This document shows, one piece after another, positions 1 to 17,828 of a DNA stretch of 64,000 nucleotides (positions are counted from its first letter, which is position 1; every line of letters starts with the position of its first letter). A program made the position numbers and the translations under genes. Under the pieces are notes generated by a model. That model worked only from the letters and a program-made list of their open reading frames with translations, did not search any database and was not told the origin of the DNA. The stretch lies in contig JAMNXP010000003.1 of NCBI GenBank assembly GCA_023653095.1, positions 39,503-103,502 of the forward strand, read 5' to 3'. The DNA comes from Bacteroidia bacterium (GTDB lineage: Bacteria > Bacteroidota > Bacteroidia > NS11-12g > UBA955).

Positions 1-843
1 TAAGAATATTGATTCTGCCTCTTGTCTCGTAAAATCTTCATAATCTCCAGGGTGATGTGTCTTCGACGCTAATACATGAGTAGCACTACATACACTATCT
101 ATCCAAGCATATGAACTTTGGGACATACTATTTAGCCAACCGAATGTTGATTCCAAAGGTTTTTGGTTTTTATTCTTTTTAAGATTTCGGTTTAATGCAT
201 CAAGTACATTTCTACAATGTGAAATACACTTATTATAATCTTTTTTATTGAAATAGTCTTCAGCTGTATCAAACTCTTTTTTTATTTTTTGATATTCATC
301 TGTTAATTGATTGTGCGTTTTCGGTATTTCAATAAGACGTATATTATTATAGCCTAAGCTTAGCATTAGGGACTCAACCCAAGTTGATTTGGGTATTTCA
401 ATTTCAATTTGAGAGTCTTGGTTTTGAAGATAATTGGATGACCACAATGTTACATCTGAATTTAAGACTATCCTATTCTTAAGTGCAATTAAAAATTTCA
501 TTTTGATCGTAAATCTCAAACTTGAATGACGTAATTTTTCAATTTGACTGATTACATCCTTAGTTAAATTAAATTTTAAATCTATTCTAAATTTTGAATC
601 ATCAAAATAAGAGTACCCTATATTCTTATTAAATTGAGAACATAACATTTGATTTTCGCCAAATAACAAAGTCGATTCAGAACCCAGAAAATCAATTGAC
701 ATATTTGCCTGTGGAAGTCGAAATTTAACATTAACTGGAATAGTTAAATAAGAATTCAATGCATCCGATGATGCAATAATTTCTTGTTCCTTAACTTCTA
801 TATCTTGAACTTTAGATATTATTGTAAATGAACCTTTACCCAT
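1..843 (-). CDS. hypothetical protein, 3' end cut by window edge (>=281 aa); C-terminal part faintly DUF4145-like (helical, Cys/Arg motif)
   Basis: Absent from the supplied ORF track because it is open at the window edge. I translated the reverse strand from the ATG at 843-841: MGKGSFTIISKVQDIEVKEQEIIASSDALNSYLTIPVNVKFRLPQANMSIDFLG...DYFNKKDYNKCISHCRNVLDALNRNLKK...THHPGDYEDFTRQEAESIFL. That gives 281 sense codons with no stop down to nt 1. The ATG overlaps the TAA of the upstream rhuM-like gene (TAATG). The region is very AT-rich. I recognise no family with confidence. Confidence 0.6.
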   Translation of the reverse strand, partial: MGKGSFTIISKVQDIEVKEQEIIASSDALNSYLTIPVNVKFRLPQANMSIDFLGSESTLLFGENQMLCSQFNKNIGYSYFDDSKFRIDLKFNLTKDVISQIEKLRHSSLRFTIKMKFLIALKNRIVLNSDVTLWSSNYLQNQDSQIEIEIPKSTWVESLMLSLGYNNIRLIEIPKTHNQLTDEYQKIKKEFDTAEDYFNKKDYNKCISHCRNVLDALNRNLKKNKNQKPLESTFGWLNSMSQSSYAWIDSVCSATHVLASKTHHPGDYEDFTRQEAESIFL

Positions 844-1886
844 TATTTTTTCTTCTTATTTGCAGGCGAATTGACATTTGATTCCTTCATTTTTTTGACT
901 TCGTTCTCAAAATCACTTACAAAGTTTTGATCTTGAGATACTCTAAATTTTTCAAACTCTTTCTCCGCTAATCTCATAGCCACATCATGACTTACTTTAC
1001 CTGCATCCCTGAGAATGTTATACTCATTAAATTGAAGGAAAGCATCTAAACGTGTAACCCAATCTGCCATTTTCATCGGGATCTGTCTTTCGGCTTGAAG
1101 TTCAGCAAAATCGAGGTACATGGTAACGATTCGTTCCAGTTCTTTGATTTCCTTTTCCTGTAGGTAATTTTTGGCTGTACCAATATCGGTTTTCAAGATT
1201 TTCCCGTTAGGGGCATTCTTCCATGTGGTTAAGCCCATGTTGGGCTGTGAGGCATCGGCTCGGTCTGCAATCAATTCGGCTGCTGTTTTGCCGGTAATGG
1301 CCCAATGCAGCTTGTTCTGAACCGTTTTAAAGAACTTTTGGGTTATTTCTGCATCCTTGTTATAGTCGATACTGCACTGCTCGTATATGTCGGTTATTTT
1401 GAGGTAGAAACGCCTTTCACTGGCTCTTATCTCCCGGATACGTTCCAAGAGTTCGTCAAAGTAGTCCTTGCCAAAGCGTTTTCCCTGTTTAAGCCTTTCA
1501 TCGTCCAGCACAAACCCCTTGATTATGAACTCCCTAAGGGTTTTAGTAGCCCAAATACGGAACTGGGTAGCCTGATGGCTGTTTACCCTGTAGCCCACGG
1601 CTATTATGGCATCCAGATTGTAAAACTCCACATTCCGCTTTACCATTCGGGTGCCTTCCTGCTGAACTGTTTCCAAAATGGAAATAGTTGCCTTTTCGAC
1701 TAATTCGCCTGTTTGGTAAATATTACTCAGGTGTTTGTTGATAGCAGGAACTTCCACACCAAAGAGTTCTGCCATCCGCTTTTGAGTAAGCCAAAAGGTT
1801 TCGTCATTAAAAATCACCTCAATTTTCACATCACCGGTGGGGGTGTTGTAAAAAATGATGTCGTTATGTTGTGGTGTATCACTCAT
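843..1886 (-). CDS. rhuM: RhuM-family protein (type I R-M-linked 'virulence protein RhuM')
   Basis: 347 aa. The N-terminal pattern IIFYNTPTGDVKIEVIFNDETFWLTQKRMAELFGV...NKHLSNIYQTGEL, then YNLDAIIAVGYRVNSHQATQFRIWATKTLREFIIKGFVLDDERLK, is the characteristic RhuM-family signature as I remember it. It lies 25 nt downstream of hsdR on the same strand. Confidence 0.8.
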   Translation of the reverse strand: MSDTPQHNDIIFYNTPTGDVKIEVIFNDETFWLTQKRMAELFGVEVPAINKHLSNIYQTGELVEKATISILETVQQEGTRMVKRNVEFYNLDAIIAVGYRVNSHQATQFRIWATKTLREFIIKGFVLDDERLKQGKRFGKDYFDELLERIREIRASERRFYLKITDIYEQCSIDYNKDAEITQKFFKTVQNKLHWAITGKTAAELIADRADASQPNMGLTTWKNAPNGKILKTDIGTAKNYLQEKEIKELERIVTMYLDFAELQAERQIPMKMADWVTRLDAFLQFNEYNILRDAGKVSHDVAMRLAEKEFEKFRVSQDQNFVSDFENEVKKMKESNVNSPANKKKK

Positions 1887-1911: not shown

Positions 1912-4900
1912 TTACTTATTGGCATTGAACTTCATAAAATCTCTCTGCATTATCTGGAACATGGTTCCGGCAAAGAAATCCCTGAACTCCTTGTTATCAT
2001 TATACTCCTTGAATACCTCGAAATTGGTCTCGATGTGGTCTATTAGTTTCCGCTTTAGTACATCTTCAAATGTAATCCTGGCATTTTGGGTGTCTGAGTG
2101 CTGGAAAGCATTAACAAACTCACTATCATTGGCTACATCTTGCATTAAATCTTCTGTCATTTTCTTCACCTTATCTTCATTGGTAAAGGCAGTACCAAAT
2201 CTGTCGTTAAATGCTTTTACAATGTTAGACAAATACTCCATTTCAGGCTCGGCAACTCCACCTCTCATCTCGGTGGGGATAGGTTTTAATTCATCACCCT
2301 GCTCAAGTGCAATATTGGTGGTTGCCTCTAATTGATATCGAAGGTTCTCCATGTCTATGTTATCCAAAATGCCTTGTGCTAAATCTTCCTCCTTCTGACG
2401 GCCTAACTTATTCTGTAAATGGTTTAAGAATAGGTATAGCCTTTCCAGATATGGGTTGATAAAAGGAACTATTTGAGCAAGGAAAACATAGAGACGAACA
2501 AACGTTTTGCATTTGGCACGGAAATCTTCTTGCTGTTCTTCGTTCAAGTGGCTTCTGAAAACTTCGGCAGCGGCATCCAAAATGCTGTGTAACTGATCAA
2601 CCGGAACATTGGCAATTAGGCGTTGTGAAAACTCCTGCACTTGTTCGGGTGTATAAACCTGAAAAGCATCTAAAGCCGATTGCAGGTCGAATAGTTTATT
2701 AGGGTCTGTTGCCTCACCCAAAATCGTGGTTTCGTAGAATGGGTCGAAAGACTTTTTGATGTCTTCTGCCTTGTTTGCAAAGTCTAATACGAATGTATCT
2801 GTTTTACCAGCCGTGGTTCTGTTCAGTCTTGAAAGGGTTTGAACAGCATTTACACCTCCCAATTTCTTATCAACATACATTGTATGTAATAGTGGCTGGT
2901 CGAACCCTGTTTGATATTTGTTGGCAACAATCAGAAAGCGATACTCTGATTTCTTAAACTCATCTGGTATTGCTGAACTTGAAAAGCCATTCAATGAGGC
3001 TTCGGTTTGCCCGCCTATTTCACCTGAAAATGCAACAATAGCTTTGAAAGGGTTTCCCGTATCTGTAAGATATCTATCGAATGCTTTTTTATACTTAACT
3101 GCATTTTTACGGCTGCTGGTAACCAGCATCGCTTTTGCCAAACCATTTATTTTTTTTCGCTTAATCACCGAATCCATGAAGTGTTCAATCATGATGGCAG
3201 TTTTCTTCTCAATAGCCAGGTCATGGCTTTCTACATAGATGCGTAGTTTCTTTTGTGCCTTTACTTTATCGAACAGTGGATCATCTTCAATGCGTTTGTA
3301 TAACCCATAAAAACTTTGGTAGGTAGTATAATTTTCCAGCACATCCCGAATGAAGTTTTCTTCAATGGCTTGCTTCATTGAGTATAAATGAAACGCCCTG
3401 AATTTTTCTTTACCGTTATCGTTAAACTTCTCACCAAACAATTCCAGTGTTTTGTTTTTAGGAGTGGCAGTAAAGGCGAAGTAGCTGGCATTGGTCAGCA
3501 TCTTCCTACCTTTTACAATATCTACCACCAAATCTTCAGAAGTAAGTTCATCATACTGGTCTTTGTCCACAAAAATGTAATCATCACCATCCACTTGTAC
3601 TTTTTCAAAATCTTTGGCCAGGGTTTCATTGAGCTTACCAGCAGTATTACCACTTTGGCTACTATGTGCTTCATCAATGATGACAGCAAACTTGTTGCCC
3701 GGCAACTCTCCAATTTCATTAACGATGTAGGGAAACTTCTGAATAGTCGTAATAATTATCTTCTTGCCTTCTTCTAAGGCAGTTTTTAGCTGCTTACTAC
3801 CTTCGGTAATGGCTTCTACAACTCCTTTTACCTGCTCAAATTGTTTGATGTTATTCCGTATCTGAGCATCCAGTACTTTGCGGTCGGTAACTACAATGAC
3901 CGTATCAAATACAGTATTGGTATTTGAGTTATCAAATAAACCTACTAACTGGTGAGCCAGCCAGCTGATTGAGTTACTCTTACCTGAACCAGCGGAATGT
4001 TGAATAAGATATCTGCGGCCAGCCCCATTTAGTTTTGCATTTTGCAACAGACTGTTTACTGCTAACAACTGGTGATAACGAGGAAATATGAGTTTCTTGA
4101 CTTTCTCCTTTTTGATTTTACCATCAGGCAATATCTTCTCTACTTCCTCTTCAAACAACTGCACATAATTCTGAATGATATTGGTTATGCTGTCTTTAGT
4201 CAATATTTCCTTCCACAAGTAGTCAGTTTTAATGCCCGATGAATTGGGGGGATTACCTGCTCCATTATTATGTCCTTTATTGAAGGGCAGAAAATATGTG
4301 CTGCCATTTTTTAAGTGAGTGGTCATCCAAACCTGCTCTGTATCTACGGCAAAGTGCACCATGCATCTGCCGAGGCGAAACAGTTCTTCTTTGCTATCTC
4401 TGGTTGTTTTGTATTGTTTGATAGCATCTTTTACATTCTGCTTGGTAAGCTCATTTTTTAATTCAAAAGTGATGATGGGTAAGCCATTGATGAAAATAAC
4501 CATATCGAGGCTATTTTCATTTTGTGTGCTGTAATGCACCTGTCGGATTACAGAGAATATATTCTTATTGTAAAGTTCAGTGTCTTGCTGGTTGAGGTTA
4601 GAAACGGGTTTATCATAAAACAATTTCAGCTTTATATTATTGTCAGTAATTCCTTTACGCAAAACCTCGATAATGCCCAGCAATTTGATTTGACTATTGA
4701 GGCGGTACAACACTTTAATTCTGTAATTGCTGCCATGGATGGCCTGCAATTTTTGAACTGCTTTCTCCTGTGTTGCTTCAAAAAAACCGAAAAGCATTTC
4801 TTCATCGACACACTCTACACGATTGTACTGGGCATGATGGCGAAGTTGAAATGAATTACCGGCAATCGTATCGCAGAGATACGCTGCAATAAGCGCTTCT

Positions 4901-4929
4901 AATCCTTTTTCTGATGTATCTGTTTTCAT
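1912..4929 (-). CDS. hsdR: type I restriction endonuclease subunit R
   Basis: 1005 aa. PD-(D/E)xK-like segment DMVIFINGLPIITFELKN. SF2 helicase motifs HSAGSGKSNS (Walker A), VIIDEAHSSQSG (DEAH), FAFTATP and QTGFDQP. Same strand and operon as hsdM/hsdS. Confidence 0.9.
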   Translation of the reverse strand: MKTDTSEKGLEALIAAYLCDTIAGNSFQLRHHAQYNRVECVDEEMLFGFFEATQEKAVQKLQAIHGSNYRIKVLYRLNSQIKLLGIIEVLRKGITDNNIKLKLFYDKPVSNLNQQDTELYNKNIFSVIRQVHYSTQNENSLDMVIFINGLPIITFELKNELTKQNVKDAIKQYKTTRDSKEELFRLGRCMVHFAVDTEQVWMTTHLKNGSTYFLPFNKGHNNGAGNPPNSSGIKTDYLWKEILTKDSITNIIQNYVQLFEEEVEKILPDGKIKKEKVKKLIFPRYHQLLAVNSLLQNAKLNGAGRRYLIQHSAGSGKSNSISWLAHQLVGLFDNSNTNTVFDTVIVVTDRKVLDAQIRNNIKQFEQVKGVVEAITEGSKQLKTALEEGKKIIITTIQKFPYIVNEIGELPGNKFAVIIDEAHSSQSGNTAGKLNETLAKDFEKVQVDGDDYIFVDKDQYDELTSEDLVVDIVKGRKMLTNASYFAFTATPKNKTLELFGEKFNDNGKEKFRAFHLYSMKQAIEENFIRDVLENYTTYQSFYGLYKRIEDDPLFDKVKAQKKLRIYVESHDLAIEKKTAIMIEHFMDSVIKRKKINGLAKAMLVTSSRKNAVKYKKAFDRYLTDTGNPFKAIVAFSGEIGGQTEASLNGFSSSAIPDEFKKSEYRFLIVANKYQTGFDQPLLHTMYVDKKLGGVNAVQTLSRLNRTTAGKTDTFVLDFANKAEDIKKSFDPFYETTILGEATDPNKLFDLQSALDAFQVYTPEQVQEFSQRLIANVPVDQLHSILDAAAEVFRSHLNEEQQEDFRAKCKTFVRLYVFLAQIVPFINPYLERLYLFLNHLQNKLGRQKEEDLAQGILDNIDMENLRYQLEATTNIALEQGDELKPIPTEMRGGVAEPEMEYLSNIVKAFNDRFGTAFTNEDKVKKMTEDLMQDVANDSEFVNAFQHSDTQNARITFEDVLKRKLIDHIETNFEVFKEYNDNKEFRDFFAGTMFQIMQRDFMKFNANK

Positions 4930-4932
4930 TAC

Positions 4933-7680
4933 TTAAAAGTCATATTTTGTTTTACGCATCTCAAAGGCAATAACACCACCTTCCATAATGTCTTTTACTT
5001 GCAATTTGATTTCATCCTTATCAATTGAACCACTACCAATAATCTCACCTGCGGATTTATCAGAATTATGGTCAAATGTTAGGATTAACTCTGCATCACC
5101 ATTTACTGCAATATTTGCATTATGACTACTGAATATGAGCTGTCGCTTATGTTTAGCCGAAACAATATTCTCGGTTATCTGGTGAATAACTTTGTTATCA
5201 AGATCATCCTCAGGCTGGTCAATAATTAAGGGGCCAAATTCCTGATTTAACAGTATCGTTAGGATTGAACCAGCTTGCTGACCATAAGAGGCATCTTCAA
5301 ACGGAATTTTATTTGAAGGGTCTTTACAATAAAGAAGTTTTAAATCATAAGTAGGAAGTTCCAACGCAAAGTCAATTATGTCTGATGTATTCAGACTTTC
5401 ATTAATTCTTTCAAAATCAGTTTCAAGAAGTGAGGCATTTTGCAAGCCATACTCTGAAATTATGTTTTCGATTTTTAGATTTTCAGTTTGAGCCTTGTAA
5501 ATTGAGAACCACAACTTCAACAGTTCTTTATAGGTATTTTCTCCCTTTAAGAGAGTCTGGAAAAACGATTGTGTCCTTGCTGGCTGGCCTTTACTTCCAG
5601 TAACTTTAGCTAAGAAATCTTTAATAATATGCTCTATATCATCTAACGGTGTTAACTCAATTTCAAGAGAACCTTCGCTTTTACTGCATATTTCAGATAC
5701 TGCACTGTTAATTAAAGTGTGCAAACTTATATTTAATTGATGCCTCTGGTAAAACAGCTTCTGCAAATTCCGTCTAACACCCTTTTCAGATTCCAAAGTT
5801 TCAAGTATCCTGTTCCTATCCTCAATCAAAACAGCCAAACGTTTTCTGAGTTCTTCAAGTTCCTTTATTATCTGCTCAAACTTTGTCTGTCTGCCTTTTG
5901 CTTCAACATACTCAGCATCATGTATACCATGCAAATCAGTTAATAGGGTCTTATCAGCAACTAAATCTGAAGAACTTGTCTTGCTTCGTGCATCCTCCAA
6001 TGCGGCTTTTATATTTTTAACTATCTCGTCATGGCTGGCAGCAAACTTTTTAATCTCCGCTATATTCTTCACATTATTTGCATCAAATTGTAACCCGTTG
6101 AAATTTCCATTTGTAAGGATATTACCTATCTGATTAAAGAGTGCTGCAATCTGAGCTTCAGAAGATTTTATTATCAATTTTTCGTTAGCAACAAGACTAT
6201 TGTTTTTGATTATTGTTTGGTCGCCTGAAGGAACATCAGACAATTGCTCATTCAAGGAATTAATTTGTTCCTCAATTGATTCAATTTGTGTCCTTAAATC
6301 TTCTGACGATTTTAGATTAGAAAGATAGGTTTCATAAGAAGCAGCTACTTCCTTAATCCTGTTGCCATTTTCGTTGATCTGTCTTTTTATTGATTCAACA
6401 CCACTATTTACAGCATTCTCAATGATCCTTGTAAGTTGTACCGTCTTGTCTTTCTCATGTTTACTAAGTTCTTTTTGTGCAAATGAATCTGCACGAATAA
6501 TTGAAACAACATTTTGACTATTGGTTGGCTGCCAGTCTTCATTGCCAATCTTTATTTTGTAAGAATTAATTGACCGCCTGATGATATGGGTGGTACCAGT
6601 TTTAATAATTACAACTTCAACGCTACCCGTGCCCAGTGTATTACTAATAAACGTCTCAAGGTCTGCTTTCTTCTCCTCATTACTGTCTTTACCCAAAGCC
6701 CATGAAATATATTGGAGCAAAGAAGACTTTCCTGTTCCTCTACCTCCAATACACACATTAAACTGAGGGTTAAATTTAATTTCTAAGTCTTTCAAGAAGC
6801 TGCTGCCCGATATTATCACTTCACTAATTCTGGTGGATGGTAACTTTGGCTCTTCCTGTAAAATTCTGGACTTTTTTGCCAGGCAGGCTTGCCGTAAACC
6901 TTCTGCAGTTGGTGTTGACCATTTTACCCAGGTGGCAGAAAAACCTAAATGTTCAAATGTATCTGTTCTATTGTCTGATGTTTGAAAAAAACCAATTGAT
7001 CTGTTTCCATAAGCAGGAACTTTACCTTCAATGATATTATTCCATCCTTCCTTCTTTTTGTGCTTTACATAAAGTTCCCTGTCTAAATAGCCACCCACGA
7101 AAATCCCTTTGGCATATTCGTTATAAAAGTTTTCACGGAAAATTGAATCACTTCCACCGTCTTTGATATTCGGAAACACTATAAAGCGACCTTTGAGGTC
7201 TTTTACACCGTTTAGAGCATCATAGACATCATTGATGCTTTTAAACGACAGCCTATTAGTTTGCCCTGTTTTTGACTCTGATTTACTTGTGTAACCTGAA
7301 ATTCCAAGTGCGGTATAGATTTTTATTCTCGTTTCATCATCTATTACTAAATCAGCGTCAAAAATCAAAAGAGCCTGACAGGGAACATCAAGCGTCAATT
7401 CCATTCCCGGGAAGACAACTATTCGTTCATGCTCAGGTATTGGATGTCCATGTACGTCCTTATCATTATTGCTAGCTTCTTTGATGTAATTGTAAAAACA
7501 CAAATCGTGGTGATCTGTAATTGCTACCGCATCAATTCTTTTTTCTCTACAAGCCTTAATAAACCGCTCTGAATAAGCAATTCTTTCGGCATCAGAAACA
7601 TAAGCCTGCCCAGAGAACTGAAGGTCTCTCGGGGTGTGAACCTGAAAGTCACATTTATAATATCTTGCACCTTTGTCCAT
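4933..7680 (-). CDS. PHP-domain phosphoesterase fused to an SMC/Rad50-like ABC ATPase (TrlF/Ppl-like)
   Basis: 915 aa. PHP motifs at the N-terminus: CDFQVHTPRD, AVAITDHHD, FPGMELT. Walker A GGRGTGKSSLL (aa ~312-321). A long helical, coiled-coil-like middle (aa ~420-760). Signature-like SYGQQAG, Walker B LIIDQPEDDLD (aa ~818-828) and H-loop FSSHNANI. The start abuts the hsdS stop (7680/7681) and the stop is 3 nt from the hsdR start. Confidence 0.75.
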   Translation of the reverse strand: MDKGARYYKCDFQVHTPRDLQFSGQAYVSDAERIAYSERFIKACREKRIDAVAITDHHDLCFYNYIKEASNNDKDVHGHPIPEHERIVVFPGMELTLDVPCQALLIFDADLVIDDETRIKIYTALGISGYTSKSESKTGQTNRLSFKSINDVYDALNGVKDLKGRFIVFPNIKDGGSDSIFRENFYNEYAKGIFVGGYLDRELYVKHKKKEGWNNIIEGKVPAYGNRSIGFFQTSDNRTDTFEHLGFSATWVKWSTPTAEGLRQACLAKKSRILQEEPKLPSTRISEVIISGSSFLKDLEIKFNPQFNVCIGGRGTGKSSLLQYISWALGKDSNEEKKADLETFISNTLGTGSVEVVIIKTGTTHIIRRSINSYKIKIGNEDWQPTNSQNVVSIIRADSFAQKELSKHEKDKTVQLTRIIENAVNSGVESIKRQINENGNRIKEVAASYETYLSNLKSSEDLRTQIESIEEQINSLNEQLSDVPSGDQTIIKNNSLVANEKLIIKSSEAQIAALFNQIGNILTNGNFNGLQFDANNVKNIAEIKKFAASHDEIVKNIKAALEDARSKTSSSDLVADKTLLTDLHGIHDAEYVEAKGRQTKFEQIIKELEELRKRLAVLIEDRNRILETLESEKGVRRNLQKLFYQRHQLNISLHTLINSAVSEICSKSEGSLEIELTPLDDIEHIIKDFLAKVTGSKGQPARTQSFFQTLLKGENTYKELLKLWFSIYKAQTENLKIENIISEYGLQNASLLETDFERINESLNTSDIIDFALELPTYDLKLLYCKDPSNKIPFEDASYGQQAGSILTILLNQEFGPLIIDQPEDDLDNKVIHQITENIVSAKHKRQLIFSSHNANIAVNGDAELILTFDHNSDKSAGEIIGSGSIDKDEIKLQVKDIMEGGVIAFEMRKTKYDF

Positions 7681-8985
7681 TTAAACTGTTTTTCTTTTTC
7701 CCATCACCGCTTCGGCTATCATCGCTTCTTTATGTTCTCTGATTAATTCAATTTCACGTTCGGCTTTAGCTATTGCTGTGTCTATGGAGGCGGTTTCGGT
7801 TCTTATGTGTGATACAATTATTTTTTGTTCATCGATTGGTGGAATTGTCAAAAATATTTTTCGAAAATCACCTTTACCTATGTTTGGCTGACCAGTCTCT
7901 CGAACATGATAATTGATTTGTTTTTGAATAAATGGGGAACTCAATTGTAAATACAAATAATCCTTGTCGAGTTCTTCTGGCTCTAATGGGATGAAATTAC
8001 CAACACGGTAATTTTGCAATAGAATTTCATCCTTAATATCTGCACGGATAATCTTTCCAATTGTCCCACCTGTAAGAGCCATTAAAATGTCACCTTCATT
8101 TATAATTATGTCACGAAACTCATCTATTCTACTTTCATCAATTGTATTAGCTTTCGTCAAGTCCAAATAACCATTGGGATTGAGCTGAGTTATCTTAACA
8201 ATTTTGACACCTTCATCTGTAAAGTCATAATCTCTAAACTGAAATCCATGCCTTAGAAAAACGTATTTGTTGAACTTTTCAATTTTATAGTGAATGGGAA
8301 ACTTTTCAGCAAAAGGAATTTCAGAGTTTTTAAATGATACTTTATCATTCAAGCCATTTGTTATGATTTTGTAAATCATTGAAAACTTCTGCTCCTTCAA
8401 CAGCTCTATAAACCGTTGTTTCTTTTCAATAAAGCGGTTTACCTTTTCCTCTTGTGCTTTGATGTATTGCACAATTTCGTCTTGCTCGGTTTTGGGCGGC
8501 ACTAAGGCAAAAATGCTGAAAAACTTATCGGAGTATAGTCGTAAACGGCTGTCAATAATACCAGTGCTGTGTCTTCGGAACTCAGCTTTAAATAATGCGG
8601 TAGTAAACAAATAGCCAAAATATTCCGGGTTATTGTCACCCTTCACACGATACACACAATAGGCAGGGCTGGTAATTCCGTTGTGTGGCGAAATGCCCAT
8701 ACTCCCATTCCACGCCAGCATAATGTTTACTACCAAATCACCCGTTTCTACCATCTTATAACCTACAAGGCTTTCGGCATTGGTTAAATGCTCATCATCA
8801 CTTTCCAGACTTTCTCTCTTGAGGGTAACTCCAGTATAATGTGAAACAGAAAGTAGTTCTTCACTACCTGTTTCACTTCGGTTATCTACCTCCTGAAACA
8901 GATTTTTAATGCGAAGCACCTGCCAGTGTGAGGGGAAATCACCCAGCCAAGCTATCTTTTTTTTGTTTACTGCCGCTGCTGTCAT
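7681..8985 (-). CDS. hsdS: type I restriction-modification specificity subunit S
   Basis: 434 aa with two target-recognition halves. Each half is followed by a conserved helical spacer (..EQDEIVQYIKAQEEKVNRFIEKKQRFIELLKEQK.. and ..DEQKIIVSHIRTETASIDTAIAKAEREIELIREHKEAMI..), which is typical of HsdS. Confidence 0.85.
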   Translation of the reverse strand: MTAAAVNKKKIAWLGDFPSHWQVLRIKNLFQEVDNRSETGSEELLSVSHYTGVTLKRESLESDDEHLTNAESLVGYKMVETGDLVVNIMLAWNGSMGISPHNGITSPAYCVYRVKGDNNPEYFGYLFTTALFKAEFRRHSTGIIDSRLRLYSDKFFSIFALVPPKTEQDEIVQYIKAQEEKVNRFIEKKQRFIELLKEQKFSMIYKIITNGLNDKVSFKNSEIPFAEKFPIHYKIEKFNKYVFLRHGFQFRDYDFTDEGVKIVKITQLNPNGYLDLTKANTIDESRIDEFRDIIINEGDILMALTGGTIGKIIRADIKDEILLQNYRVGNFIPLEPEELDKDYLYLQLSSPFIQKQINYHVRETGQPNIGKGDFRKIFLTIPPIDEQKIIVSHIRTETASIDTAIAKAEREIELIREHKEAMIAEAVMGKRKTV

Positions 8986-8990: not shown

Positions 8991-9704
8991 CTAAATTGTA
9001 TCAACGGGATCGTCTTGATTTCGGTGAATAGGATTGTTATTAACATTAAAGCATTCTTTTGATGCCTTAAATTGTTTTACTAATGCAGCTCTTACCTCTG
9101 GCATTGCATTGAATACATTGTACCACACACTCCAGAATCCTGAATCACCTGCCTGACCAATAATTCCGTTTAAAGTTGCTTGTCGTGGCACACTTGTATA
9201 TTCGGCATACCTTTCTAAAGCCTGACTAATTGCCTTTAATCTGTATTCAAATCTAGTATCAACACCACCAGAACTGTTTACTTTTTTGTCTAAACCATAC
9301 AAGGCTATTGTTGCATTAGCTTTAACTGGCTGATTCGCTGTTAATTTAGAAGAAGGCACCAAAACTCCCGATAGGTGCTCAAAAACAATTAAAGTATTTT
9401 GTTTATGAGGCCAGTAATAGTTGTGCAGTTTTATATCTAGATTACCCTTAGTGCTATTACAATAGTGACAAATTAATAACAAATTGCTCCATTCATTTCG
9501 AAGGTTTTCATACTTATTTTTATTTCCATAACACTCTTTCGGTTTAATATGCTCAACAGCTGGAACATTCAAAATTGGCATTTCACAAAAATGGCAGTAA
9601 CGACAGGTCTGCCTTATCAAGTATGGCTTTGCCTCACCCCAGTGATCGAATTGAATTTTTTTTCCTGCTTTATTTACAGGTTGTTTTTTAGTAATTGGCC
9701 TCAT
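8991..9704 (-). CDS. HNH endonuclease, PtuB/TIGR02646-like
   Basis: 237 aa. Cys-rich HNH core CRYCHFCE...VEHIKPK...NLLLICHYCNSTKGN. Its start overlaps the stop of the upstream ATPase by 4 nt (ATGA). Confidence 0.7.
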   Translation of the reverse strand: MRPITKKQPVNKAGKKIQFDHWGEAKPYLIRQTCRYCHFCEMPILNVPAVEHIKPKECYGNKNKYENLRNEWSNLLLICHYCNSTKGNLDIKLHNYYWPHKQNTLIVFEHLSGVLVPSSKLTANQPVKANATIALYGLDKKVNSSGGVDTRFEYRLKAISQALERYAEYTSVPRQATLNGIIGQAGDSGFWSVWYNVFNAMPEVRAALVKQFKASKECFNVNNNPIHRNQDDPVDTI

Positions 9705-11029
9705 TTCTCATTAACCTTTTTTACTTCCAAATATGCTTTATAAACAGGATCTGTTGTGTCCTGAACAAGTATTCCATCGACTATTTGTTTTAGTACTAAA
9801 TAGTCGTTTTGGCCAATCTCACCAGGTTTCTTTGCTAATTGCTCAAGAACACGTAAAGCTATCATATGCCTGTCTTGAAAATCATCGCTATTAATATTCT
9901 TAACTCCCATAATATCAGTAGCGACTTTGTTAAGTGGTTGATCAACAGGGTTAATATCAGGATGCAATTCGTCAAGATTAATTAATTCTTCCTGTTTCAA
10001 ACTCTGAACAATAAAAGGTGAATGAGTTGTTACTACAAACTGCATTTTAGGGAAAGTCGCTTTCAAATCTTTAATAACATGCCGCTGCCATGTGGGATGC
10101 AAATGCATGTCTAATTCATCAATCAAAACCACGCCAGGGCTTTTCACAACTGCATCATAACCCAACTTTCCATTCAACATGATGCAGCGGTAAGCAATTT
10201 CTGCCACCATGTTCAACATAGCCTTCATACCATCGCTTAGCATAGAGGCAATCTTTCTTTCAACCGGCTGCCCGTCATTAAAATCTACCAATACTTCAAA
10301 CTCATCATACTTTGAGTTGTATTCGATTTCTTTTATGTAGGGTATGGCGGTTGTAATGGCATCATACATAGCTTGTATTGTGCCCTCAAATTCTACTTCA
10401 TCTTTTACCTTCTTTTCGTAACTGTATAGCCATTCATACACACCTGTGAAATCAACACTATCTCCTAGTGCAGTGTAATACCCTTTCTCCAAACGAGACA
10501 TCCTACGCCACTTTTTATCAACCCTTCTTACCTGTGCATTGGTTCGATTAATATAGAAATTAGCTAATACTGGATATAGCACATTCTTTTTAGTTGAATG
10601 ATTGTCAAACAAATAATTAGCATAGCGAATAATGTCAGCAGAATGCTCTTTTTTATGAGTAGTGGCATTACTTGGGAGATAGTGTCTTTCCCAACGAAAC
10701 GGTTCTGGTATTTCATCAACTACATCGTTATGATACCATTTAGCGGCAACAATTAAAGACGGATTTTCTTTGTTGGGCAGATAGTCTTTTCTTTCGGGGT
10801 AATATTTTACAAACCGTTCTCCTTTCTTAAACTGCCTTCTGTAAATATAGTTTGCAGGCAATGTAGGCATAGATTGTAAGAAAGCACCTAAACCCACTTG
10901 CAATGCATTGAGCAAGGTTGATTTACCAAGTCCATTATTACCTATGGCCACAGTAAACCTCTCCTTGAACTCGAAAGACTTTTCTTCAAAGCCCTTAAAG
11001 TTTTTTAAGTGTATGTGTGTTATCAGCAT
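9701..11029 (-). CDS. ABC-type AAA ATPase, PtuA-like (AAA_15/21-like)
   Basis: 442 aa. N-terminal LKNFKGF, Walker A GNNGLGKSTLLNAL, Walker B VVLIDELDMHLHP and VVTTHSPFIV. One nt separates it from the hsdM stop. Confidence 0.7.
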   Translation of the reverse strand: MLITHIHLKNFKGFEEKSFEFKERFTVAIGNNGLGKSTLLNALQVGLGAFLQSMPTLPANYIYRRQFKKGERFVKYYPERKDYLPNKENPSLIVAAKWYHNDVVDEIPEPFRWERHYLPSNATTHKKEHSADIIRYANYLFDNHSTKKNVLYPVLANFYINRTNAQVRRVDKKWRRMSRLEKGYYTALGDSVDFTGVYEWLYSYEKKVKDEVEFEGTIQAMYDAITTAIPYIKEIEYNSKYDEFEVLVDFNDGQPVERKIASMLSDGMKAMLNMVAEIAYRCIMLNGKLGYDAVVKSPGVVLIDELDMHLHPTWQRHVIKDLKATFPKMQFVVTTHSPFIVQSLKQEELINLDELHPDINPVDQPLNKVATDIMGVKNINSDDFQDRHMIALRVLEQLAKKPGEIGQNDYLVLKQIVDGILVQDTTDPVYKAYLEVKKVNEK

Positions 11030-11030: not shown

Positions 11031-12815
11031 TTATTCGATTATTTCTTTTAATAGCCCCTCTGTTTCTTCCTCAATAGCCAGAATATCTTTTGCGATTTCA
11101 TCTAAAGGTCTTGGGGGCTGGTGTTTATAGAAGTATTTAGCAAAATTGATTTCATAACCCACCTTGTTATCCTTTTCATCCCACCATGCATCAGGAGCAA
11201 AAGGCAATACTTCTCTTTCAAAAAATTCCTGAATGTCTTCTTTTAAAGGAATGTTCTCTGTGTCCTTCAATTTGCTATCTGCCTTTGGCTTTCCTTTACT
11301 TGCATAAATGATATTGCCGTTTTCATCTCTTTCCGGACGGTTCACATTAATTTGTGTGTAGCCAAAATCCTCGTTATCGAAAATTTTACTGTATTCATTT
11401 TCCTCAAAGTCGAGGTACATTTTTTCAATTACCGGTATATGACTTTCTGAAAATTCAACCCTCTTTTTGCCCAAAGGCTTCCGCATTTTAGTGTAGAACT
11501 TTTCAGATGTAGCATTAATCAGCTGAACCTTTCCTATACGGTGTTTTGCCTTTCTATTGGTGATTATGAAAATGTAAGTGGGAATACCCGTATTGTAGAA
11601 CATATCATTAGGCAATGCTATGATGGCTTCCAATAAATCATTTGAAATGATATGCTTTCTGATTTCGCTTTCGCCTTGTCCTGCATCACCAGTAAATAAG
11701 GCTGAACCATTGTGAACTGAAGCAATACGACTGCCGAGTTCGGTATCCTTCATTTTACTGAGCATGTGTAATACAAACATCAACTGACCATCATTAACCC
11801 GACTGGTTACAGCTTCATTCTTATAGCAGCCATTCAGGATAAAACGCTTATCAATGATCTTTCCTTTTTCGCCCACTCCTAGGGCTTTCTTATCGGGAGC
11901 CCACGTTTTGCCATAAGGCGGGTTTGTGAGCATGAAATCGAACTTCAAATCAGAAGGAAAACCGTATGTACTTAATGTACTGCCATAGGCAATTTTGTTT
12001 GGGTCTTCCCCTTTTATCAGCATATCGCTTTTGCAGGTAGCGTATATAAAGGGAGTGCTTTCCTGACCGTATAAATGAACTGTTGCGTTACTTCTAATTG
12101 GACCTTCAGGATTCAACATGAAGTTCTTTGCGATTGTGAGCATACCACCAGAACCAACGCAAGGGTCGTAAAGCAAATATGTACCTTGTTTGATTTGATC
12201 TTTTACGGGAACAAAAACAAGATGCGTCATTAAATCGATGATTTCCCTTGGTGTAAAGTGTTCTCCGGCTTCTTCGTTATTTTCTTCATTAAAACGCCTT
12301 ACTAAATCTTCATAAACATAACCCATAGCTAATGGGGGTAGCTTATCTGGATGTAGTTCAACTTTGGGAGAACAAAACTTTTCGATTAAAGAGAATAGAA
12401 TTTGAGCTTCTTCAAGTGTTTCTATTTCATTTCTGAACTTAAACTTATTGATAATGTCCTGTACATTATCTGAAAAGCCGTTGAGGTAGTTTTCAAAATT
12501 AGAACGCAAGTTTTTTGGATCTTGCATTAACTTCTTTAATGTAAATGGCGAGGTGTTATAAAAGGCCAGTCCTGAACCATGCTTGCTGTTCGTTAACAAT
12601 GAATCAAGATTTTGCAGCTTGTCCTTATACTCCGAAAATGTTTTAAGAACCTGGTCTTTCGTTGGCTCTAATAGTAAGTCTAATCTGCGAATAACAATCA
12701 TTGGCAGAATAACATCTTTGTATTTACCCTTCTGATAGGTATTAACTAAAACATCATCAGCAACCGTCCAGAGAAAGTTAATAATTGGTTGAAGTGATTG
12801 TGTATTTAAAGCCAT
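11031..12815 (-). CDS. hsdM: type I R-M N6-adenine DNA methyltransferase subunit M
   Basis: 594 aa. SAM-binding motif DPCVGSGGML and catalytic motif LTNPPYGKTW (NPPY). Confidence 0.9.
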   Translation of the reverse strand: MALNTQSLQPIINFLWTVADDVLVNTYQKGKYKDVILPMIVIRRLDLLLEPTKDQVLKTFSEYKDKLQNLDSLLTNSKHGSGLAFYNTSPFTLKKLMQDPKNLRSNFENYLNGFSDNVQDIINKFKFRNEIETLEEAQILFSLIEKFCSPKVELHPDKLPPLAMGYVYEDLVRRFNEENNEEAGEHFTPREIIDLMTHLVFVPVKDQIKQGTYLLYDPCVGSGGMLTIAKNFMLNPEGPIRSNATVHLYGQESTPFIYATCKSDMLIKGEDPNKIAYGSTLSTYGFPSDLKFDFMLTNPPYGKTWAPDKKALGVGEKGKIIDKRFILNGCYKNEAVTSRVNDGQLMFVLHMLSKMKDTELGSRIASVHNGSALFTGDAGQGESEIRKHIISNDLLEAIIALPNDMFYNTGIPTYIFIITNRKAKHRIGKVQLINATSEKFYTKMRKPLGKKRVEFSESHIPVIEKMYLDFEENEYSKIFDNEDFGYTQINVNRPERDENGNIIYASKGKPKADSKLKDTENIPLKEDIQEFFEREVLPFAPDAWWDEKDNKVGYEINFAKYFYKHQPPRPLDEIAKDILAIEEETEGLLKEIIE

Positions 12816-12818: not shown

Positions 12819-13130
12819 TTATTTATTTCTTTTGTTTCTTTTATTCGATTTCAATGTTTCTTGAGCAGCATCCATTGCCTTTAGTGCAACATCTTCATCC
12901 TTGACCACTTCATACAACTGATCGGCTAACCAAAGCACAAGCAATTCGTTGGAATCTGCTTTCAGTATTTCAGCCAATACCGGAATCTGATCCCTTTTAA
13001 GTAGTCTGCTCCCTTTTTCAATTTTACTCAGTTGGGCCGTATCCATTTCAAGAAATGGTGCTACCTGCCGCAAATACAAGTTTTGCTTCTCTCTGAGCTC
13101 CCTGACCCTCTCACCAAATTGACTTTTCAT
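12819..13130 (-). CDS. XRE-family HTH transcriptional regulator (candidate controller of the R-M operon)
   Basis: 103 aa. FGERVRELREKQNLYLRQVAPFLEMDTAQLSKIEKGSR fits the HTH_3/XRE pattern. It is the first gene of the operon, 3 nt upstream of hsdM. Confidence 0.75.
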   Translation of the reverse strand: MKSQFGERVRELREKQNLYLRQVAPFLEMDTAQLSKIEKGSRLLKRDQIPVLAEILKADSNELLVLWLADQLYEVVKDEDVALKAMDAAQETLKSNKRNKRNK

Positions 13131-14045: not shown

Positions 14046-14071
14046 GGTTATTAATTGGTTTACTCATATAC

Positions 14072-15466: not shown

Positions 15467-15813
15467 CGTCTGATTGGATTTTGACGAACGTAGCTCCTAG
15501 CATCTTTTTCGATTTTGCTTATCTGTTCATGTTTACCTGAATTTAACCATTCCTGCAGATCACCCTTTCGAAATAGAATCTTCTTTCCATTCTTGAAGAA
15601 CGGAATTTTTCTTCTACTCGTCATCGAGTACAAGGTCTGTTTGGCAATGTGCAGAAACTCTGCAGCCTGATCGGCGTTGAGCACTTCTGCTTTCTGATTG
15701 TTCTCGGCCAGTTCTGTAACGGCCGTTTCTTGATGCTGTTCTAATGCGGTCTGAACAGCTTCATTCACCAACTCCGTGATGAATGCTTGTAGGTGAGTAA
15801 TACTTTCTTTCAT
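15463..15813 (-). CDS. excisionase-family HTH DNA-binding protein
   Basis: 116 aa. LNADQAAEFLHIAKQTLYSMTSRRKIPFFKNGKKILFRKGDLQEWL is the MerR/AlpA-type excisionase pattern. Confidence 0.65.
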   Translation of the reverse strand: MKESITHLQAFITELVNEAVQTALEQHQETAVTELAENNQKAEVLNADQAAEFLHIAKQTLYSMTSRRKIPFFKNGKKILFRKGDLQEWLNSGKHEQISKIEKDARSYVRQNPIRR

Positions 15814-15839
15814 ATTTGAAACATTTACTCACCATGCAT

Positions 15840-17210: not shown

Positions 17211-17212
17211 AA

Positions 17213-17786: not shown

Positions 17787-17828
17787 ATTTATCTTTTGTT
17801 GTTTTTGTTTATCGTTGATTATCGGCGT

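What the first reader, a model, noticed from the sequence alone, without database searches (positions are those of the whole stretch)
4933..7680. PHP phosphoesterase fused to an SMC/Rad50-like ATPase, wedged between hsdS and hsdR
Seen in the sequence: the 915-aa protein has N-terminal PHP metal-binding motifs (CDFQVHTPRD, AVAITDHHD, FPGMELT). It then has a split ABC head (Walker A GGRGTGKS at aa ~312; SYGQQAG, LIIDQPEDDLD and FSSHNAN at aa ~805-850). The two head halves are separated by a helical stretch of more than 300 aa. The gene abuts hsdS with zero spacer.

Established knowledge: this layout (nuclease/phosphoesterase plus a Rad50/SbcC-type head with a coiled coil) mimics a single-chain SbcCD/Mre11-Rad50. 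As I recall, PHP+ATPase single-gene defence candidates were named Ppl, and NCBI uses the name 'TrlF family AAA-like ATPase' for type I R-M-linked proteins. The mechanism is not established to my knowledge.

Inference: the protein could be a DNA-end or stalled-translocation sensor whose PHP domain degrades DNA or nucleotides after HsdR action.
Basis: partly seen in the sequence, partly recalled or inferred. Interest (0 to 1): 0.75.

Follow-up and report, generated by a model that had tools for sequence, protein, structure and literature searches.

The report
TrlF PHP–SMC-like ATPase inside type I R-M operon
The gene is a real, intact member of the already-named but untested TrlF family (a PHP phosphoesterase fused to an SMC/Rad50-like ATPase, sister to the anti-phage protein Ppl), and it sits in a known insertion hotspot between hsdS and hsdR, most likely as a self-contained second defence layer rather than a part of the restriction enzyme.

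Summary
It abuts hsdS with no spacer and hsdR with 3 nt.

Family: it passes NCBIfam's TrlF model over its full length (474 bits, cut-off 350). It fails the Ppl model (180 bits, cut-off 1000).

Structure: AlphaFold plus Foldseek give a PHP fold for aa 1-275, nearest to EndoQ and the PolC and Pol III PHP domains. The rest is an SMC/Rad50/JetC-type ABC head split by a coiled coil of about 255 aa with no zinc hook.

Two refinements:
- Only 5 of the 9 canonical PHP metal ligands survive. Q13, Q102, N171 and R238 replace histidines, and these replacements are conserved.
- Walker B reads DQPE, with Gln where the catalytic Glu normally sits. Ppl shares this.

dN/dS is 0.05-0.12 in every domain.

"TrlF" comes from the Photorhabdus "temperature restriction locus", not from type I R-M linkage.

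Context: relatives at 75-96% identity keep hsdS-TrlF-hsdR. Relatives at 64-72% stand alone in other defence islands. Only 9 of 80 diverse genomic loci have type I genes nearby. The hsdS/hsdR junction is a published hotspot (DarTG2, TgvAB, TrlG+TrlF).

Verdict: a new member of a known kind, probably an autonomous Ppl-like nuclease. Coupling to HsdR is unproven.

The parts
4933..7680 (-). TrlF-family gene (915 aa + stop): PHP phosphoesterase fused to an SMC/Rad50-like ABC ATPase
   Evidence: ORF list and translation. NCBIfam NF045780 TrlF_fam_ATP scores 473.8 bits against a cut-off of 350, covering aa 3-913. The AF2 model has mean pLDDT 87.
6856..7680 (-). PHP domain, aa 1-275. Ligand positions are Q13, H15, D19, H57, E94, Q102, N171, D236, R238.
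   Evidence: The domain model has pLDDT 94. The best Foldseek PDB match is EndoQ 5zb8 (E 5.8e-8, TM 0.57), followed by PolC, BAD_1165, Pol III alpha and RNase AM PHP domains. Pfam PHP scores only 17.9 bits, below its cut-off of 26.4. Ligand columns were mapped against Ppl and other TrlFs.
6451..6834 (-). ABC head, N-terminal lobe, aa 283-410, with Walker A GGRGTGKS (312-319) and the likely Q-loop Q402
   Evidence: Pfam AAA_23 scores 40.6 bits, above its cut-off of 27. Foldseek matches SMC, Rad50, JetC, LmuB and RecN heads at E about 1e-9. K318 and Q402 are invariant.
5680..6450 (-). Antiparallel coiled coil, aa 411-667. Helices run 425-479 and 485-524 up, and 540-567, 571-631 and 635-667 down. 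The apex is at about 525-539 and has no CxxC hook.
   Evidence: AF2 secondary structure. The stretch contains a single Cys and no CxxC (sequence).
5344..5679 (-). Mostly helical insert between the coiled coil and the C-terminal head lobe, aa 668-779
   Evidence: AF2 model. Its function was not assigned.
4936..5343 (-). ABC head, C-terminal lobe, aa 780-915, with signature SYGQQ (798-802), Walker B IIDQPE (819-824, Gln at the catalytic-Glu position), the D-loop and H-loop H853
   Evidence: Sequence. D821, Q822, P823, E824 and H853 are invariant. Q822 aligns with the E-to-Q position of a cohesin Smc3 EQ-mutant chain.
7681..8985 (-). hsdS (434 aa), immediately upstream with a 0-nt spacer
   Evidence: Pfam Methylase_S and PADLOC Specificity_I at 279 bits. 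Junction sequence.
1912..4929 (-). hsdR (1005 aa), immediately downstream with a 3-nt spacer. The nuclease D..ExK motif and the DEAH box are present.
   Evidence: Pfam HSDR_N, ResIII, SWI2_SNF2 and T1R_D3-like. Alignment to EcoR124I HsdR. Junction sequence.
11031..12815 (-). hsdM (594 aa), same operon
   Evidence: Pfam HsdM_N and N6_Mtase; PADLOC MTase_I at 780 bits.
12819..13130 (-). XRE-type HTH gene (103 aa), the first gene of the operon and its likely regulator. It is conserved at this position in relatives.
   Evidence: Pfam HTH_31, HTH_19 and HTH_3. The same gene precedes hsdM in L085 and L086.
8991..11029 (-). Septu-like ptuA (9701-11029) and ptuB (8991-9704) cassette in the second variable slot, between hsdM and hsdS. 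Listed as context; it is not part of TrlF.
   Evidence: PADLOC PtuA at 380 bits and PtuB at 195 bits. In relatives this slot holds a Bro-N gene or nothing.

Best explanation
The gene encodes a TrlF-family protein. This is a single polypeptide in which an N-terminal PHP phosphoesterase is fused to an SMC/Rad50-type ABC NTPase whose two head lobes are separated by a coiled coil of about 255 aa.

Most likely it is a self-contained defence effector of the same mechanistic class as its sister family Ppl. In that model, two copies engage through their heads when nucleotide is bound. The head and coiled-coil module recognises a nucleic-acid feature, probably free DNA ends or ssDNA. The PHP domain then cleaves phosphodiester bonds. 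Nucleotide occupancy acts as a brake rather than as fuel, which would fit the invariant Gln at the Walker B catalytic position.

The gene sits between hsdS and hsdR because that junction is a recurrent recombination hotspot for defence cargo. It is co-transcribed with the type I system under the operon's HTH regulator. The integrative element at mnmE therefore delivers several defence layers at once: type I R-M, Septu-like PtuAB, TrlF and RhuM. DNA ends made by HsdR may add substrate, but the protein does not need HsdR.

Shown here: gene integrity, family membership, both folds, motif states, purifying selection and the distribution of genomic contexts.
Inferred: a defence role, nuclease chemistry, NTP-gated regulation and independence from HsdR.
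For: Family and folds:
- Full-length TrlF HMM match above the curated cut-off.
- The ATPase and coiled-coil part is homologous to Ppl (E 5.6e-53, aa 241-909; PADLOC Ppl 154 bits).
- PHP fold with nucleic-acid-acting PHP enzymes as the nearest structures.
- SMC, Rad50, JetC, LmuB and RecN heads as the nearest structures for the remainder.

Motifs and selection:
- Walker A, Q-loop, signature, Walker B Asp and H-loop are invariant. The DQPE motif is shared with Ppl.
- dN/dS is 0.05-0.12 in all five segments.
- In distant relatives the PHP domain is the best-conserved part, about 50% identity against about 36% overall.

Autonomy:
- Relatives of the same length at 72%, 70% and 64% identity lie outside any R-M locus, next to HD-CE/HATPase_c_3, an integrase, and type II R-M plus TIR genes.
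- Of 80 diverse genomic loci, only 9 have two or more type I subunits nearby, and 9 have TrlG. Other neighbours are pAgo, SIR2, type III and IIG R-M, DRT and T4SS coupling proteins.
- 1140 plasmids carry a match, and 823 of them are conjugative.
- In one relative hsdR lies in three reading frames while TrlF is intact.

Hotspot:
- DarTG2, and a pair of 'RNA-binding protein + AAA-like ATPase' genes, are reported embedded between hsdS and hsdR.
- Embedding in type I R-M systems is widespread.

Ppl activity: reviewed, with the primary reference.
Against: - No TrlF has been tested for phage defence in any paper I could find. In Photorhabdus the role of trlF was left open.
- In this clade 4 of the 9 canonical PHP ligands are replaced: Q13, Q102, N171 and R238. 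Nuclease activity cannot simply be carried over from Ppl, which has the canonical set.
- Pfam PHP is below threshold.
- The tight packing (0 and 3 nt) argues that the link to the type I system may be more than accidental. So does repeated, independent embedding in the same slot of unrelated type I systems: L091, where HsdR is only 23% identical, and the Klebsiella plasmid arrangement R-TrlF-TrlG-S-AAA-M.
- A nearly identical recombination tract spans the TrlF/hsdR junction in a relative.
Confidence: 0.6

Rival explanations
1. Restriction-coupled processor. TrlF acts downstream of the type I enzyme. HsdR translocation and cleavage produce DNA ends or stalled complexes. The SMC-like module recognises them, and the PHP domain degrades the DNA. 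A rare double-strand cut thereby becomes irreversible destruction, for example when a phage blocks RecBCD.
For: - The spacers are 0 nt to hsdS and 3 nt to hsdR.
- The hsdS-TrlF-hsdR order is retained across relatives at 75-96% identity, with HsdM at 88% and HsdR at 82-87%.
- A TrlF at 57% identity occupies the same slot in an unrelated type I system, where HsdR is 23% identical.
- A TrlF at 22% identity lies between hsdR and hsdS on a Klebsiella plasmid.
- 9 of 80 diverse loci have type I genes on the same strand.
- Ppl is reported to be triggered by 3'-OH DNA ends.
Against: - About 90% of diverse TrlF loci lack type I genes nearby.
- Relatives at 64-72% identity and identical length are outside R-M loci, so no adaptor domain distinguishes the embedded copies.
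- TrlF also follows type III-like mod/res genes and sits beside many other systems.
- The slot hosts unrelated cargo.
- One relative has a frameshifted hsdR next to an intact TrlF.
Confidence: 0.17
2. PrrC-type guard of the restriction enzyme. TrlF is held inactive by binding the type I complex. It is unleashed when a phage anti-restriction protein disables that complex, and then it degrades nucleic acid as a back-up or abortive response.
For: - TrlF occupies the same position in the operon as prrC, between hsdS and hsdR. (The prr locus order is from my own knowledge. PrrC is noted as almost exclusively embedded in type I R-M systems.)
- Both proteins carry ABC-type NTPase domains.
- The packing is tight.
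Against: - Unlike PrrC, TrlF is mostly found away from type I systems.
- It has no similarity to the PrrC nuclease domain. No PrrC or RloC model was hit.
- There is no evidence of a physical interaction.
Confidence: 0.07
3. Not an anti-phage gene. TrlF serves the mobile element itself, for example in DNA-end processing or repair, plasmid competition or exclusion, or a conditional toxic function as in the Photorhabdus temperature-restriction operon. On this reading it is only a passenger in the R-M operon.
For: - The family is very common on conjugative plasmids: 823 of the 1140 plasmids with a match.
- It lies beside T4SS coupling-protein genes in 7 loci.
- It is rare in phage genomes: 7 of 50,697 records.
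- The founding trl operon gives a growth phenotype, not a phage phenotype.
- RefSeq attaches the GO term 'double-strand break repair' to one member.
Against: - The neighbours are overwhelmingly defence genes: R-M types I, II, III and IIG, pAgo, SIR2, Septu, DRT, TIR and RhuM/PDC-S05.
- The sister family Ppl is an experimentally shown anti-phage protein.
- In Photorhabdus the phenotype mapped to trlG, not trlF.
Confidence: 0.12
4. The PHP domain has lost catalysis. It serves only as a nucleotide- or DNA-binding sensor, and the protein acts as a clamp or regulator rather than as a nuclease.
For: - Four of nine canonical metal ligands are substituted (H to Q, Q, N and R) in this clade.
- Pfam PHP is below threshold.
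- PHP domains of some Pol III alpha subunits are known to be inactive (established knowledge). They are among the structural matches.
Against: - The substituted positions are themselves nearly invariant: Q13 and Q102 in 112/112 close relatives and 63/67 and 59/67 diverse relatives, and R238 in 59/67 diverse relatives.
- Gln and Asn can still bind Mg or Mn.
- H15, D19, H57, E94 and D236 are retained.
- The PHP domain is the most conserved part of the protein at long range. Its dN/dS is 0.05-0.09.
Confidence: 0.04

Closest known systems
TrlF family AAA-like ATPase (NCBIfam NF045780), named after trlF of the Photorhabdus laumondii temperature restriction locus trlR-trlF-trlG
   Same: The whole protein matches above the curated cut-off. 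The architecture is the same: PHP, ABC head and coiled coil. Both have D-x-(R/K) in the last PHP motif and DQPE in Walker B.
   Different: - There is no TrlG (AlbA_2 + HATPase_c_4) partner anywhere in the window, and no 79-aa TrlR.
- This clade has Q-x-H, Q and N where the enterobacterial and Listeria TrlFs keep H-x-H, H and H.
- It is embedded in a Bacteroidota type I R-M operon.
- No experimental function is known for any TrlF.
Ppl (single-gene anti-phage protein of E. coli; NCBIfam NF042955, PADLOC Ppl)
   Same: The ATPase and coiled-coil region is homologous (aa 241-909, E 5.6e-53). Both have an N-terminal PHP domain. They share Walker A, signature, DQPEDDLD and H-loop motifs. Both are carried on mobile elements.
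   Different: - The score is 180 bits against a cut-off of 1000, so this is not a Ppl equivalog.
- The PHP domains barely align. Ppl keeps all canonical His and Asp ligands, including D-x-H, while this protein has Q13, Q102, N171 and R238.
- The Ppl mechanism is published: 3'-5' ssDNA exonuclease, NTP inhibition and 3'-OH end sensing. None of it has been tested for TrlF.
Mre11-Rad50 / SbcCD and SMC-like defence ATPases (JetC of Wadjet, LmuB of Lamassu)
   Same: An ABC head split by an antiparallel coiled coil. These are the top Foldseek matches at E about 1e-9. The logic of a nuclease joined to an end-sensing ATPase is the same.
   Different: - The nuclease is a PHP domain fused in cis. It is not a separate Mre11/SbcD calcineurin-like phosphoesterase or a Toprim or Cap4 effector.
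- The coiled coil is short, about 100-125 residues per arm, with no CxxC zinc hook.
- There is no kleisin or KITE partner.
- Walker B has Gln instead of the catalytic Glu.
Defence genes embedded between hsdS and hsdR of type I R-M operons (PrrC; DarTG2 in the EPEC RptR island; TgvAB in V. cholerae VPI-2; the 'RNA-binding protein + AAA-like ATPase' pair)
   Same: The insertion slot is the same and the gene is co-oriented within the operon behind a small HTH regulator. The pair reported in four gammaproteobacteria fits TrlG+TrlF by RefSeq product names, as in the Klebsiella plasmid locus.
   Different: - Here TrlF is alone, in Bacteroidota.
- A second slot, between hsdM and hsdS, is also occupied, by PtuAB.
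- The regulator is a 103-aa XRE-type protein, not the 79-aa RptR. This was not compared directly.
EndoQ and other nucleic-acid PHP enzymes (PolC and Pol III alpha PHP, RNase AM, TrpH-like)
   Same: These are the best structural neighbours of the N-terminal domain. EndoQ gives E 5.8e-8 and TM 0.57.
   Different: Sequence identity is only 10-17%. The ligand set differs. There is no EndoQ zinc-finger or C-terminal domain. The substrate is unknown.

Membership tests
TrlF family (NF045780) | Full-length match to the curated equivalog HMM at or above its cut-off | tested here: met
   473.8 bits against a cut-off of 350; aa 3-913 match profile positions 1-943 of 944.
TrlF family (NF045780) | N-terminal PHP-fold domain | tested here: met
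   The domain model has pLDDT 94. Foldseek matches EndoQ, PolC, Pol III alpha, BAD_1165 and RNase AM PHP domains.
TrlF family (NF045780) | ABC/SMC-type head (Walker A, Q-loop, signature, DQPE Walker B, H-loop) split by a coiled coil | tested here: met
   Motifs are present and invariant. Foldseek matches SMC, Rad50 and JetC heads. Coiled coil in the AF2 model.
TrlF family (NF045780) | Last PHP motif reads D-x-(R/K) rather than D-x-H. This is my own reading of the alignments, not a curated criterion. | tested here: met
   D236-N-R238 here. R in 59/67 diverse loci and 112/112 close relatives. K in enterobacterial and Listeria TrlFs. H in Ppl.
trl operon as first described (trlR-trlF-trlG) | Adjacent TrlG (AlbA_2 + HATPase_c_4) partner | tested here: not met
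   A TrlG HMM finds nothing in the 64-kb window. TrlG is adjacent in only 9 of 80 diverse loci, so it does not define the protein family.
Ppl (NF042955) | Match to the curated equivalog HMM at or above its cut-off | tested here: not met
   180.1 bits against a cut-off of 1000. The best stretch covers only aa 241-909.
Ppl (NF042955) | Canonical PHP metal ligands (H-x-H, H, E, H, H, D-x-H) | tested here: not met
   E. coli Ppl has them all. This protein has Q13, Q102, N171 and R238 at four of those columns.
Ppl (NF042955) | ssDNA 3'-5' exonuclease activity inhibited by NTPs, and anti-phage protection | not testable with these tools
   The activity is described only in the literature on Ppl. It needs biochemistry and phage assays.
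Mre11-Rad50 / SbcCD | Rad50-type ABC head with an antiparallel coiled coil | tested here: met
   Foldseek matches 7zr1, 9q9h, 5dny and 3av0 among others. AF2 helices.
Mre11-Rad50 / SbcCD | CxxC zinc hook at the coiled-coil apex | tested here: not met
   aa 411-667 contain one Cys and no CxxC. The apex reads LTNGNFNGLQFDANNVKN.
Mre11-Rad50 / SbcCD | Mre11/SbcD calcineurin-like phosphoesterase as the nuclease | tested here: not met
   The nuclease candidate has a PHP fold. No Metallophos hit.
PrrC-type R-M-dependent guard | Located between hsdS and hsdR | tested here: met
PrrC-type R-M-dependent guard | Near-exclusive association with type I R-M operons | tested here: not met
   9 of 80 diverse loci. 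Close relatives stand outside R-M loci.
PrrC-type R-M-dependent guard | Physical silencing by the R-M complex and activation by anti-restriction factors | not testable with these tools
   Needs pull-downs and phage genetics.

The most novel reading that the evidence does not exclude
TrlF copies embedded between hsdS and hsdR are functionally wired to type I restriction. On this reading the SMC-like module reads the DNA ends, or the collided or stalled HsdR motors, that restriction produces. The remodelled PHP site (Q/Q/N/R) then resects the DNA. This would give type I systems their own exonuclease, independent of RecBCD, and would explain why the same slot is colonised repeatedly in unrelated type I families across phyla.
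Probability: 0.15. Interest if true: 0.7.

Novelty: new member of a known kind. Interest (0 to 1): 0.35.

Why it matters
TrlF is a large family with no tested function. It has 601 clusters at 50% identity with E<=1e-30, and 1.6% of the plasmids searched carry a match. It is the closest relative of Ppl.

This locus gives a clean natural setting for asking whether an SMC-like PHP enzyme acts alone or together with a type I restriction enzyme. In one co-oriented operon on an integrative element it combines the regulator, hsdM, Septu, hsdS, TrlF and hsdR.

Two features are concrete and testable. One is the conserved remodelling of the PHP metal site. The other is the family-wide DQPE Walker B, with Gln where ABC ATPases place the catalytic Glu. 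Both bear on how NTP sensing and nuclease gating work in this protein class.

If the protein is autonomous, as I expect, the finding is one more example of the known habit of embedding defence genes at the hsdS/hsdR junction.

Tried and rejected
- A sequence search of the protein against PDB chains found only P-loop-level matches to SMC at E about 0.1.
- A profile search meant for the PHP domain alone used alignment A3, whose other rows are full-length. It therefore returned only SMC, Rad50 and coiled-coil hits and said nothing about the PHP domain.
- No Ppl or TrlF structure appeared among the Foldseek PDB matches. The primary Ppl paper is not in the held library.
- The sigma-70 promoter and terminator scan of the operon found no more sites than shuffled sequence: 33 against 39.7 and 12 against 8.2. 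The consensus also does not suit a Bacteroidota host, so it gave no information on internal promoters.
- No tRNA gene marks the island border.
- The ungapped dN/dS comparison with L090 is invalid because indels in the coiled coil misalign it. Many dS values for the more distant pairs are saturated. Only the L085, L087 and L088 figures were used.
- I considered that TrlF might replace a defective HsdR nuclease. I rejected this because the D..ExK and DEAH motifs of HsdR are present.
- I considered filing the protein as Ppl. I rejected this on the HMM cut-off and the PHP ligand pattern.
I therefore could not measure the geometry of the predicted active site or the docking of the PHP domain on the head.

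Full report
1. WHAT IS THERE

The window carries a co-oriented run of genes on the minus strand:
- XRE-type HTH gene, 12819-13130
- hsdM, 11031-12815
- a Septu-like ptuA (9701-11029) and ptuB (8991-9704) pair
- hsdS, 7681-8985
- the 915-aa ORF of the finding, 4933-7680
- hsdR, 1912-4929
- a RhuM/PDC-S05 gene, 843-1886

The hsdS stop codon is followed directly by the ATG of the ORF. Three bases separate the ORF's stop codon from the hsdR start. HsdR looks complete. Its D..ExK nuclease motif aligns with the EcoR124I catalytic region, and it has a DEAH box. The ORF is therefore not standing in for a missing nuclease.

Further upstream lie DUF3987, two HTH_17 genes and a tyrosine integrase (16068-17210), next to mnmE (17829-19259). 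G+C rises from about 0.36-0.40 to about 0.45 beyond 17.5 kb. The operon is therefore cargo of an integrative element. Type IX secretion CHU_C proteins nearby point to a Bacteroidota host.

2. FAMILY

The protein matches NCBIfam NF045780, 'TrlF family AAA-like ATPase', end to end at 473.8 bits (cut-off 350). It scores only 180 bits against the Ppl model (cut-off 1000), and only over aa 241-909. It scores 145 bits against Spaf_1101 (cut-off 475). Pfam sees AAA_23 above threshold. SMC_N and PHP are below threshold.

The name TrlF comes from the 'temperature restriction locus' trlR-trlF-trlG of Photorhabdus laumondii. There, mutations in trlG (AlbA_2 + HATPase_c_4) relieve a growth-temperature limit, and the role of trlF was left open. 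The name has nothing to do with type I R-M linkage. I found no paper that tests a TrlF protein.

The family is sizeable. There are 601 clusters at 50% identity with E<=1e-30. tblastn finds matches in 1140 of 72,556 plasmids, of which 823 are conjugative. It finds matches in only 7 of 50,697 phage records.

3. STRUCTURE

A full-length AlphaFold2 model (pLDDT 87, pTM 0.67) gives five segments:
- aa 1-275: an alpha/beta domain
- aa 283-410: an ABC head lobe
- aa 411-667: an antiparallel coiled coil
- aa 668-779: a mostly helical insert
- aa 780-915: the second head lobe

Foldseek against the PDB returns SMC, Rad50, JetC, LmuB, MukB and RecN heads at E about 1e-9.

The N-terminal domain was modelled separately (pLDDT 94). 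It matches the PHP-family endonuclease EndoQ best (E 5.8e-8, TM 0.57). Next come the PHP domains of PolC, BAD_1165, Pol III alpha and RNase AM. The PHP fold is confirmed, and its nearest neighbours act on nucleic acids. The coiled coil has no CxxC zinc hook.

4. ACTIVE SITES

I aligned the protein with E. coli Ppl (annotated plasmid copy) and with TrlFs from Shigella, Klebsiella, Listeria and Sphingobium plasmids. I then tabulated the ligand columns in 112 close and 67 diverse relatives.

PHP ligand patterns:
| Group | Pattern |
|---|---|
| Ppl | canonical: H-x-H, H, E, H, H, D-x-H |
| Enterobacterial and Listeria TrlFs | the same, except D-x-K |
| This protein and most environmental TrlFs | Q13-x-H15, D19, H57, E94, Q102, N171 (H in about 40%), D236-x-R238 |

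Five of the nine canonical ligands survive. Four are replaced, but the replacements are themselves almost invariant. That pattern points to a remodelled site rather than a decayed one.

In the ATPase, Walker A (K318), Q402, the signature S798-x-G-Q-Q, D821 and H853 are invariant. The residue after the Walker B Asp, normally the catalytic Glu, is Gln in 178 of 179 TrlF sequences and also in Ppl. It is followed by P823-E824. In a profile alignment this Gln falls on the E-to-Q position of a cohesin Smc3 EQ-mutant chain. My inference is that the head binds nucleotide and engages but hydrolyses slowly, unless E824 takes over. This would fit the reported role of NTPs as inhibitors of Ppl.

dN/dS against three relatives is 0.05-0.12 overall and below 0.2 in every segment. 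At long range the PHP domain is the best-conserved part: about 50% identity against about 36% for the whole protein.

5. GENOMIC CONTEXT OF RELATIVES

Close relatives:
| TrlF identity | Context |
|---|---|
| 96%, 82%, 75% | HTH-hsdM-(Bro-N or nothing)-hsdS-TrlF-hsdR, equally tight spacing |
| 86% | contig begins within hsdS, then TrlF and hsdR; hsdR lies in three reading frames while TrlF is intact |
| 72% | beside HD-CE/HATPase_c_3 genes, about 10 kb from mnmE |
| 70% | next to an integrase |
| 64% (Mucilaginibacter) | between a type II R-M system and a TIR/SEFIR gene |
| 57% | hsdS-TrlF-DUF3800-x-hsdR, in a type I system whose HsdR is only 23% identical to this one |

In the 96%, 82% and 75% loci HsdM is 88% and HsdR 82-87% identical to the window's, so they belong to one operon lineage. 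The 64-72% relatives are 915-916 aa, essentially the window's length. The 57% relative is an independent embedding in the same slot.

A Klebsiella plasmid carries HTH-hsdR-TrlF-TrlG-hsdS-AAA-hsdM with overlapping ORFs. Its TrlF is 22% identical. A Sphingobium plasmid has methyltransferase, DEAD-box helicase and TrlF in a row, which resembles a type III system.

Among 80 loci from species-representative genomes:
- 9 have two or more type I subunits on the same strand within five genes.
- 9 have TrlG.
- Other immediate neighbours include pAgo, SIR2-APAZ, type III and IIG R-M, DRT, T4SS coupling proteins and integrases.

TrlF is thus a mobile, mostly single-gene resident of defence islands. It has a recurrent but minority association with restriction systems.

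6. LITERATURE ON THE SLOT

In EPEC, DarTG2 is embedded between hsdS and hsdR behind a small repressor, RptR. [quoted passage not shown] Those are the RefSeq product names of TrlG and TrlF, as seen in the Klebsiella locus.

[quoted passage not shown] A survey found thousands of genes embedded in BREX, DISARM and type I R-M systems, and noted PrrC as almost exclusively embedded in type I systems. The embedding phenomenon is therefore known, including for this family.

7. MOSAICISM

Against the closest relative (L085), nucleotide identity varies along the block:
- 95-99% from about window 6800 to 4500, which covers TrlF aa 295-915 and the first 140 or so codons of hsdR
- 63-83% over the rest of hsdR
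- 80-92% over the PHP-coding part

dS is 0.51 in the PHP-coding part against 0.03-0.09 elsewhere. hsdS is only 55% identical. Homologous recombination between related operons therefore shuffles segments, and one recent tract crosses the TrlF/hsdR junction.

8. INTERPRETATION

Best explanation, about 0.6: an autonomous, Ppl-like defence effector lodged in a hotspot and co-expressed with the R-M system. The steps shown and the steps inferred are listed under the best explanation.

Rivals:
- a restriction-coupled end processor, about 0.17
- a PrrC-like guard, about 0.07
- a function that serves the mobile element rather than defence, about 0.12
- a catalytically dead PHP sensor, about 0.04

The strongest argument for coupling is the repeated use of the S/R slot in unrelated type I systems. 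The strongest arguments against are the many stand-alone relatives of identical architecture and the fact that the slot takes unrelated cargo.

9. VERDICT

The annotation 'TrlF family' is right. 'Ppl' is the sister family, not the family of this protein. The feature is a new member of a known kind. Two details are worth testing: the remodelled PHP site and DQPE in a solo, R-M-embedded Bacteroidota TrlF. Interest is moderate to low (0.35). It would rise if HsdR dependence were shown.

Noticed in passing
window 8991-11029 (-): A Septu-like pair sits between hsdM and hsdS: ptuA (442 aa, PADLOC 380 bits) and the HNH gene ptuB (237 aa, 195 bits). They overlap each other by 4 nt. In the closest relatives this slot holds a Bro-N gene (279 aa) or nothing. 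The operon therefore has two variable cargo slots, on either side of hsdS.
   Followed up: partly
window 843-1886 (-): A RhuM-family gene (Pfam 390 bits; PADLOC candidate PDC-S05, 525 bits) lies directly downstream of hsdR. In locus L038 a RhuM homologue lies between TrlF and hsdR.
   Followed up: no
window 13299-19259: This is the border of an integrative element. It holds an HTH_7-like gene, DUF3987 (14072-15466), HTH_17, a tyrosine integrase (16068-17210) and another HTH_17, followed by mnmE (17829-19259). G+C steps from about 0.38 to about 0.45 here. A relative at 72% identity (L083) also lies about 10 kb from mnmE, which suggests a shared integration hotspot. No tRNA gene is present.
   Followed up: partly
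window about 4500-6800 versus L085: A tract of 95-99% nucleotide identity covers the ATPase part of TrlF and the first 140 or so codons of hsdR. It is flanked by sequence at 63-92% identity. dS is 0.51 in the PHP-coding part against 0.03-0.09 elsewhere. This is a recent recombination tract that crosses the TrlF/hsdR junction.
   Followed up: partly
L087:3507-6513: In the relative with 86% TrlF identity, the hsdR homologue is spread over three reading frames, which means at least two frameshifts. The adjacent 2.7-kb TrlF gene is intact. This could be pseudogenisation, phase variation or assembly error.
   Followed up: partly
L096 (Klebsiella pneumoniae plasmid NZ_CP029723.1, 128724-139231): The locus reads HTH-hsdR-TrlF-TrlG('RNA-binding domain-containing protein')-hsdS-AAA ATPase-hsdM, with overlapping ORFs. 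It mirrors the window's layout: TrlF between S and R, and an ABC-type ATPase between S and M. It occurs in a different phylum, and its TrlF is 22% identical.
   Followed up: partly
window 4933-7680, aa 821-824, and all relatives: Walker B reads D-Q-P-E, with Gln at the usual catalytic-Glu position, in 178 of 179 TrlF sequences and in E. coli Ppl. This is a natural 'EQ' state across the whole TrlF/Ppl clade.
   Followed up: partly
L094 (Sphingobium plasmid pMI3) and L092 (Shigella plasmid): TrlF directly follows a methyltransferase and a DEAD-box helicase, a pair that looks like type III mod/res, with an 8-nt gap. On an IncF plasmid it sits near ccdAB and an S-4TM effector gene. The family is common on conjugative plasmids of Enterobacterales.
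   Followed up: no
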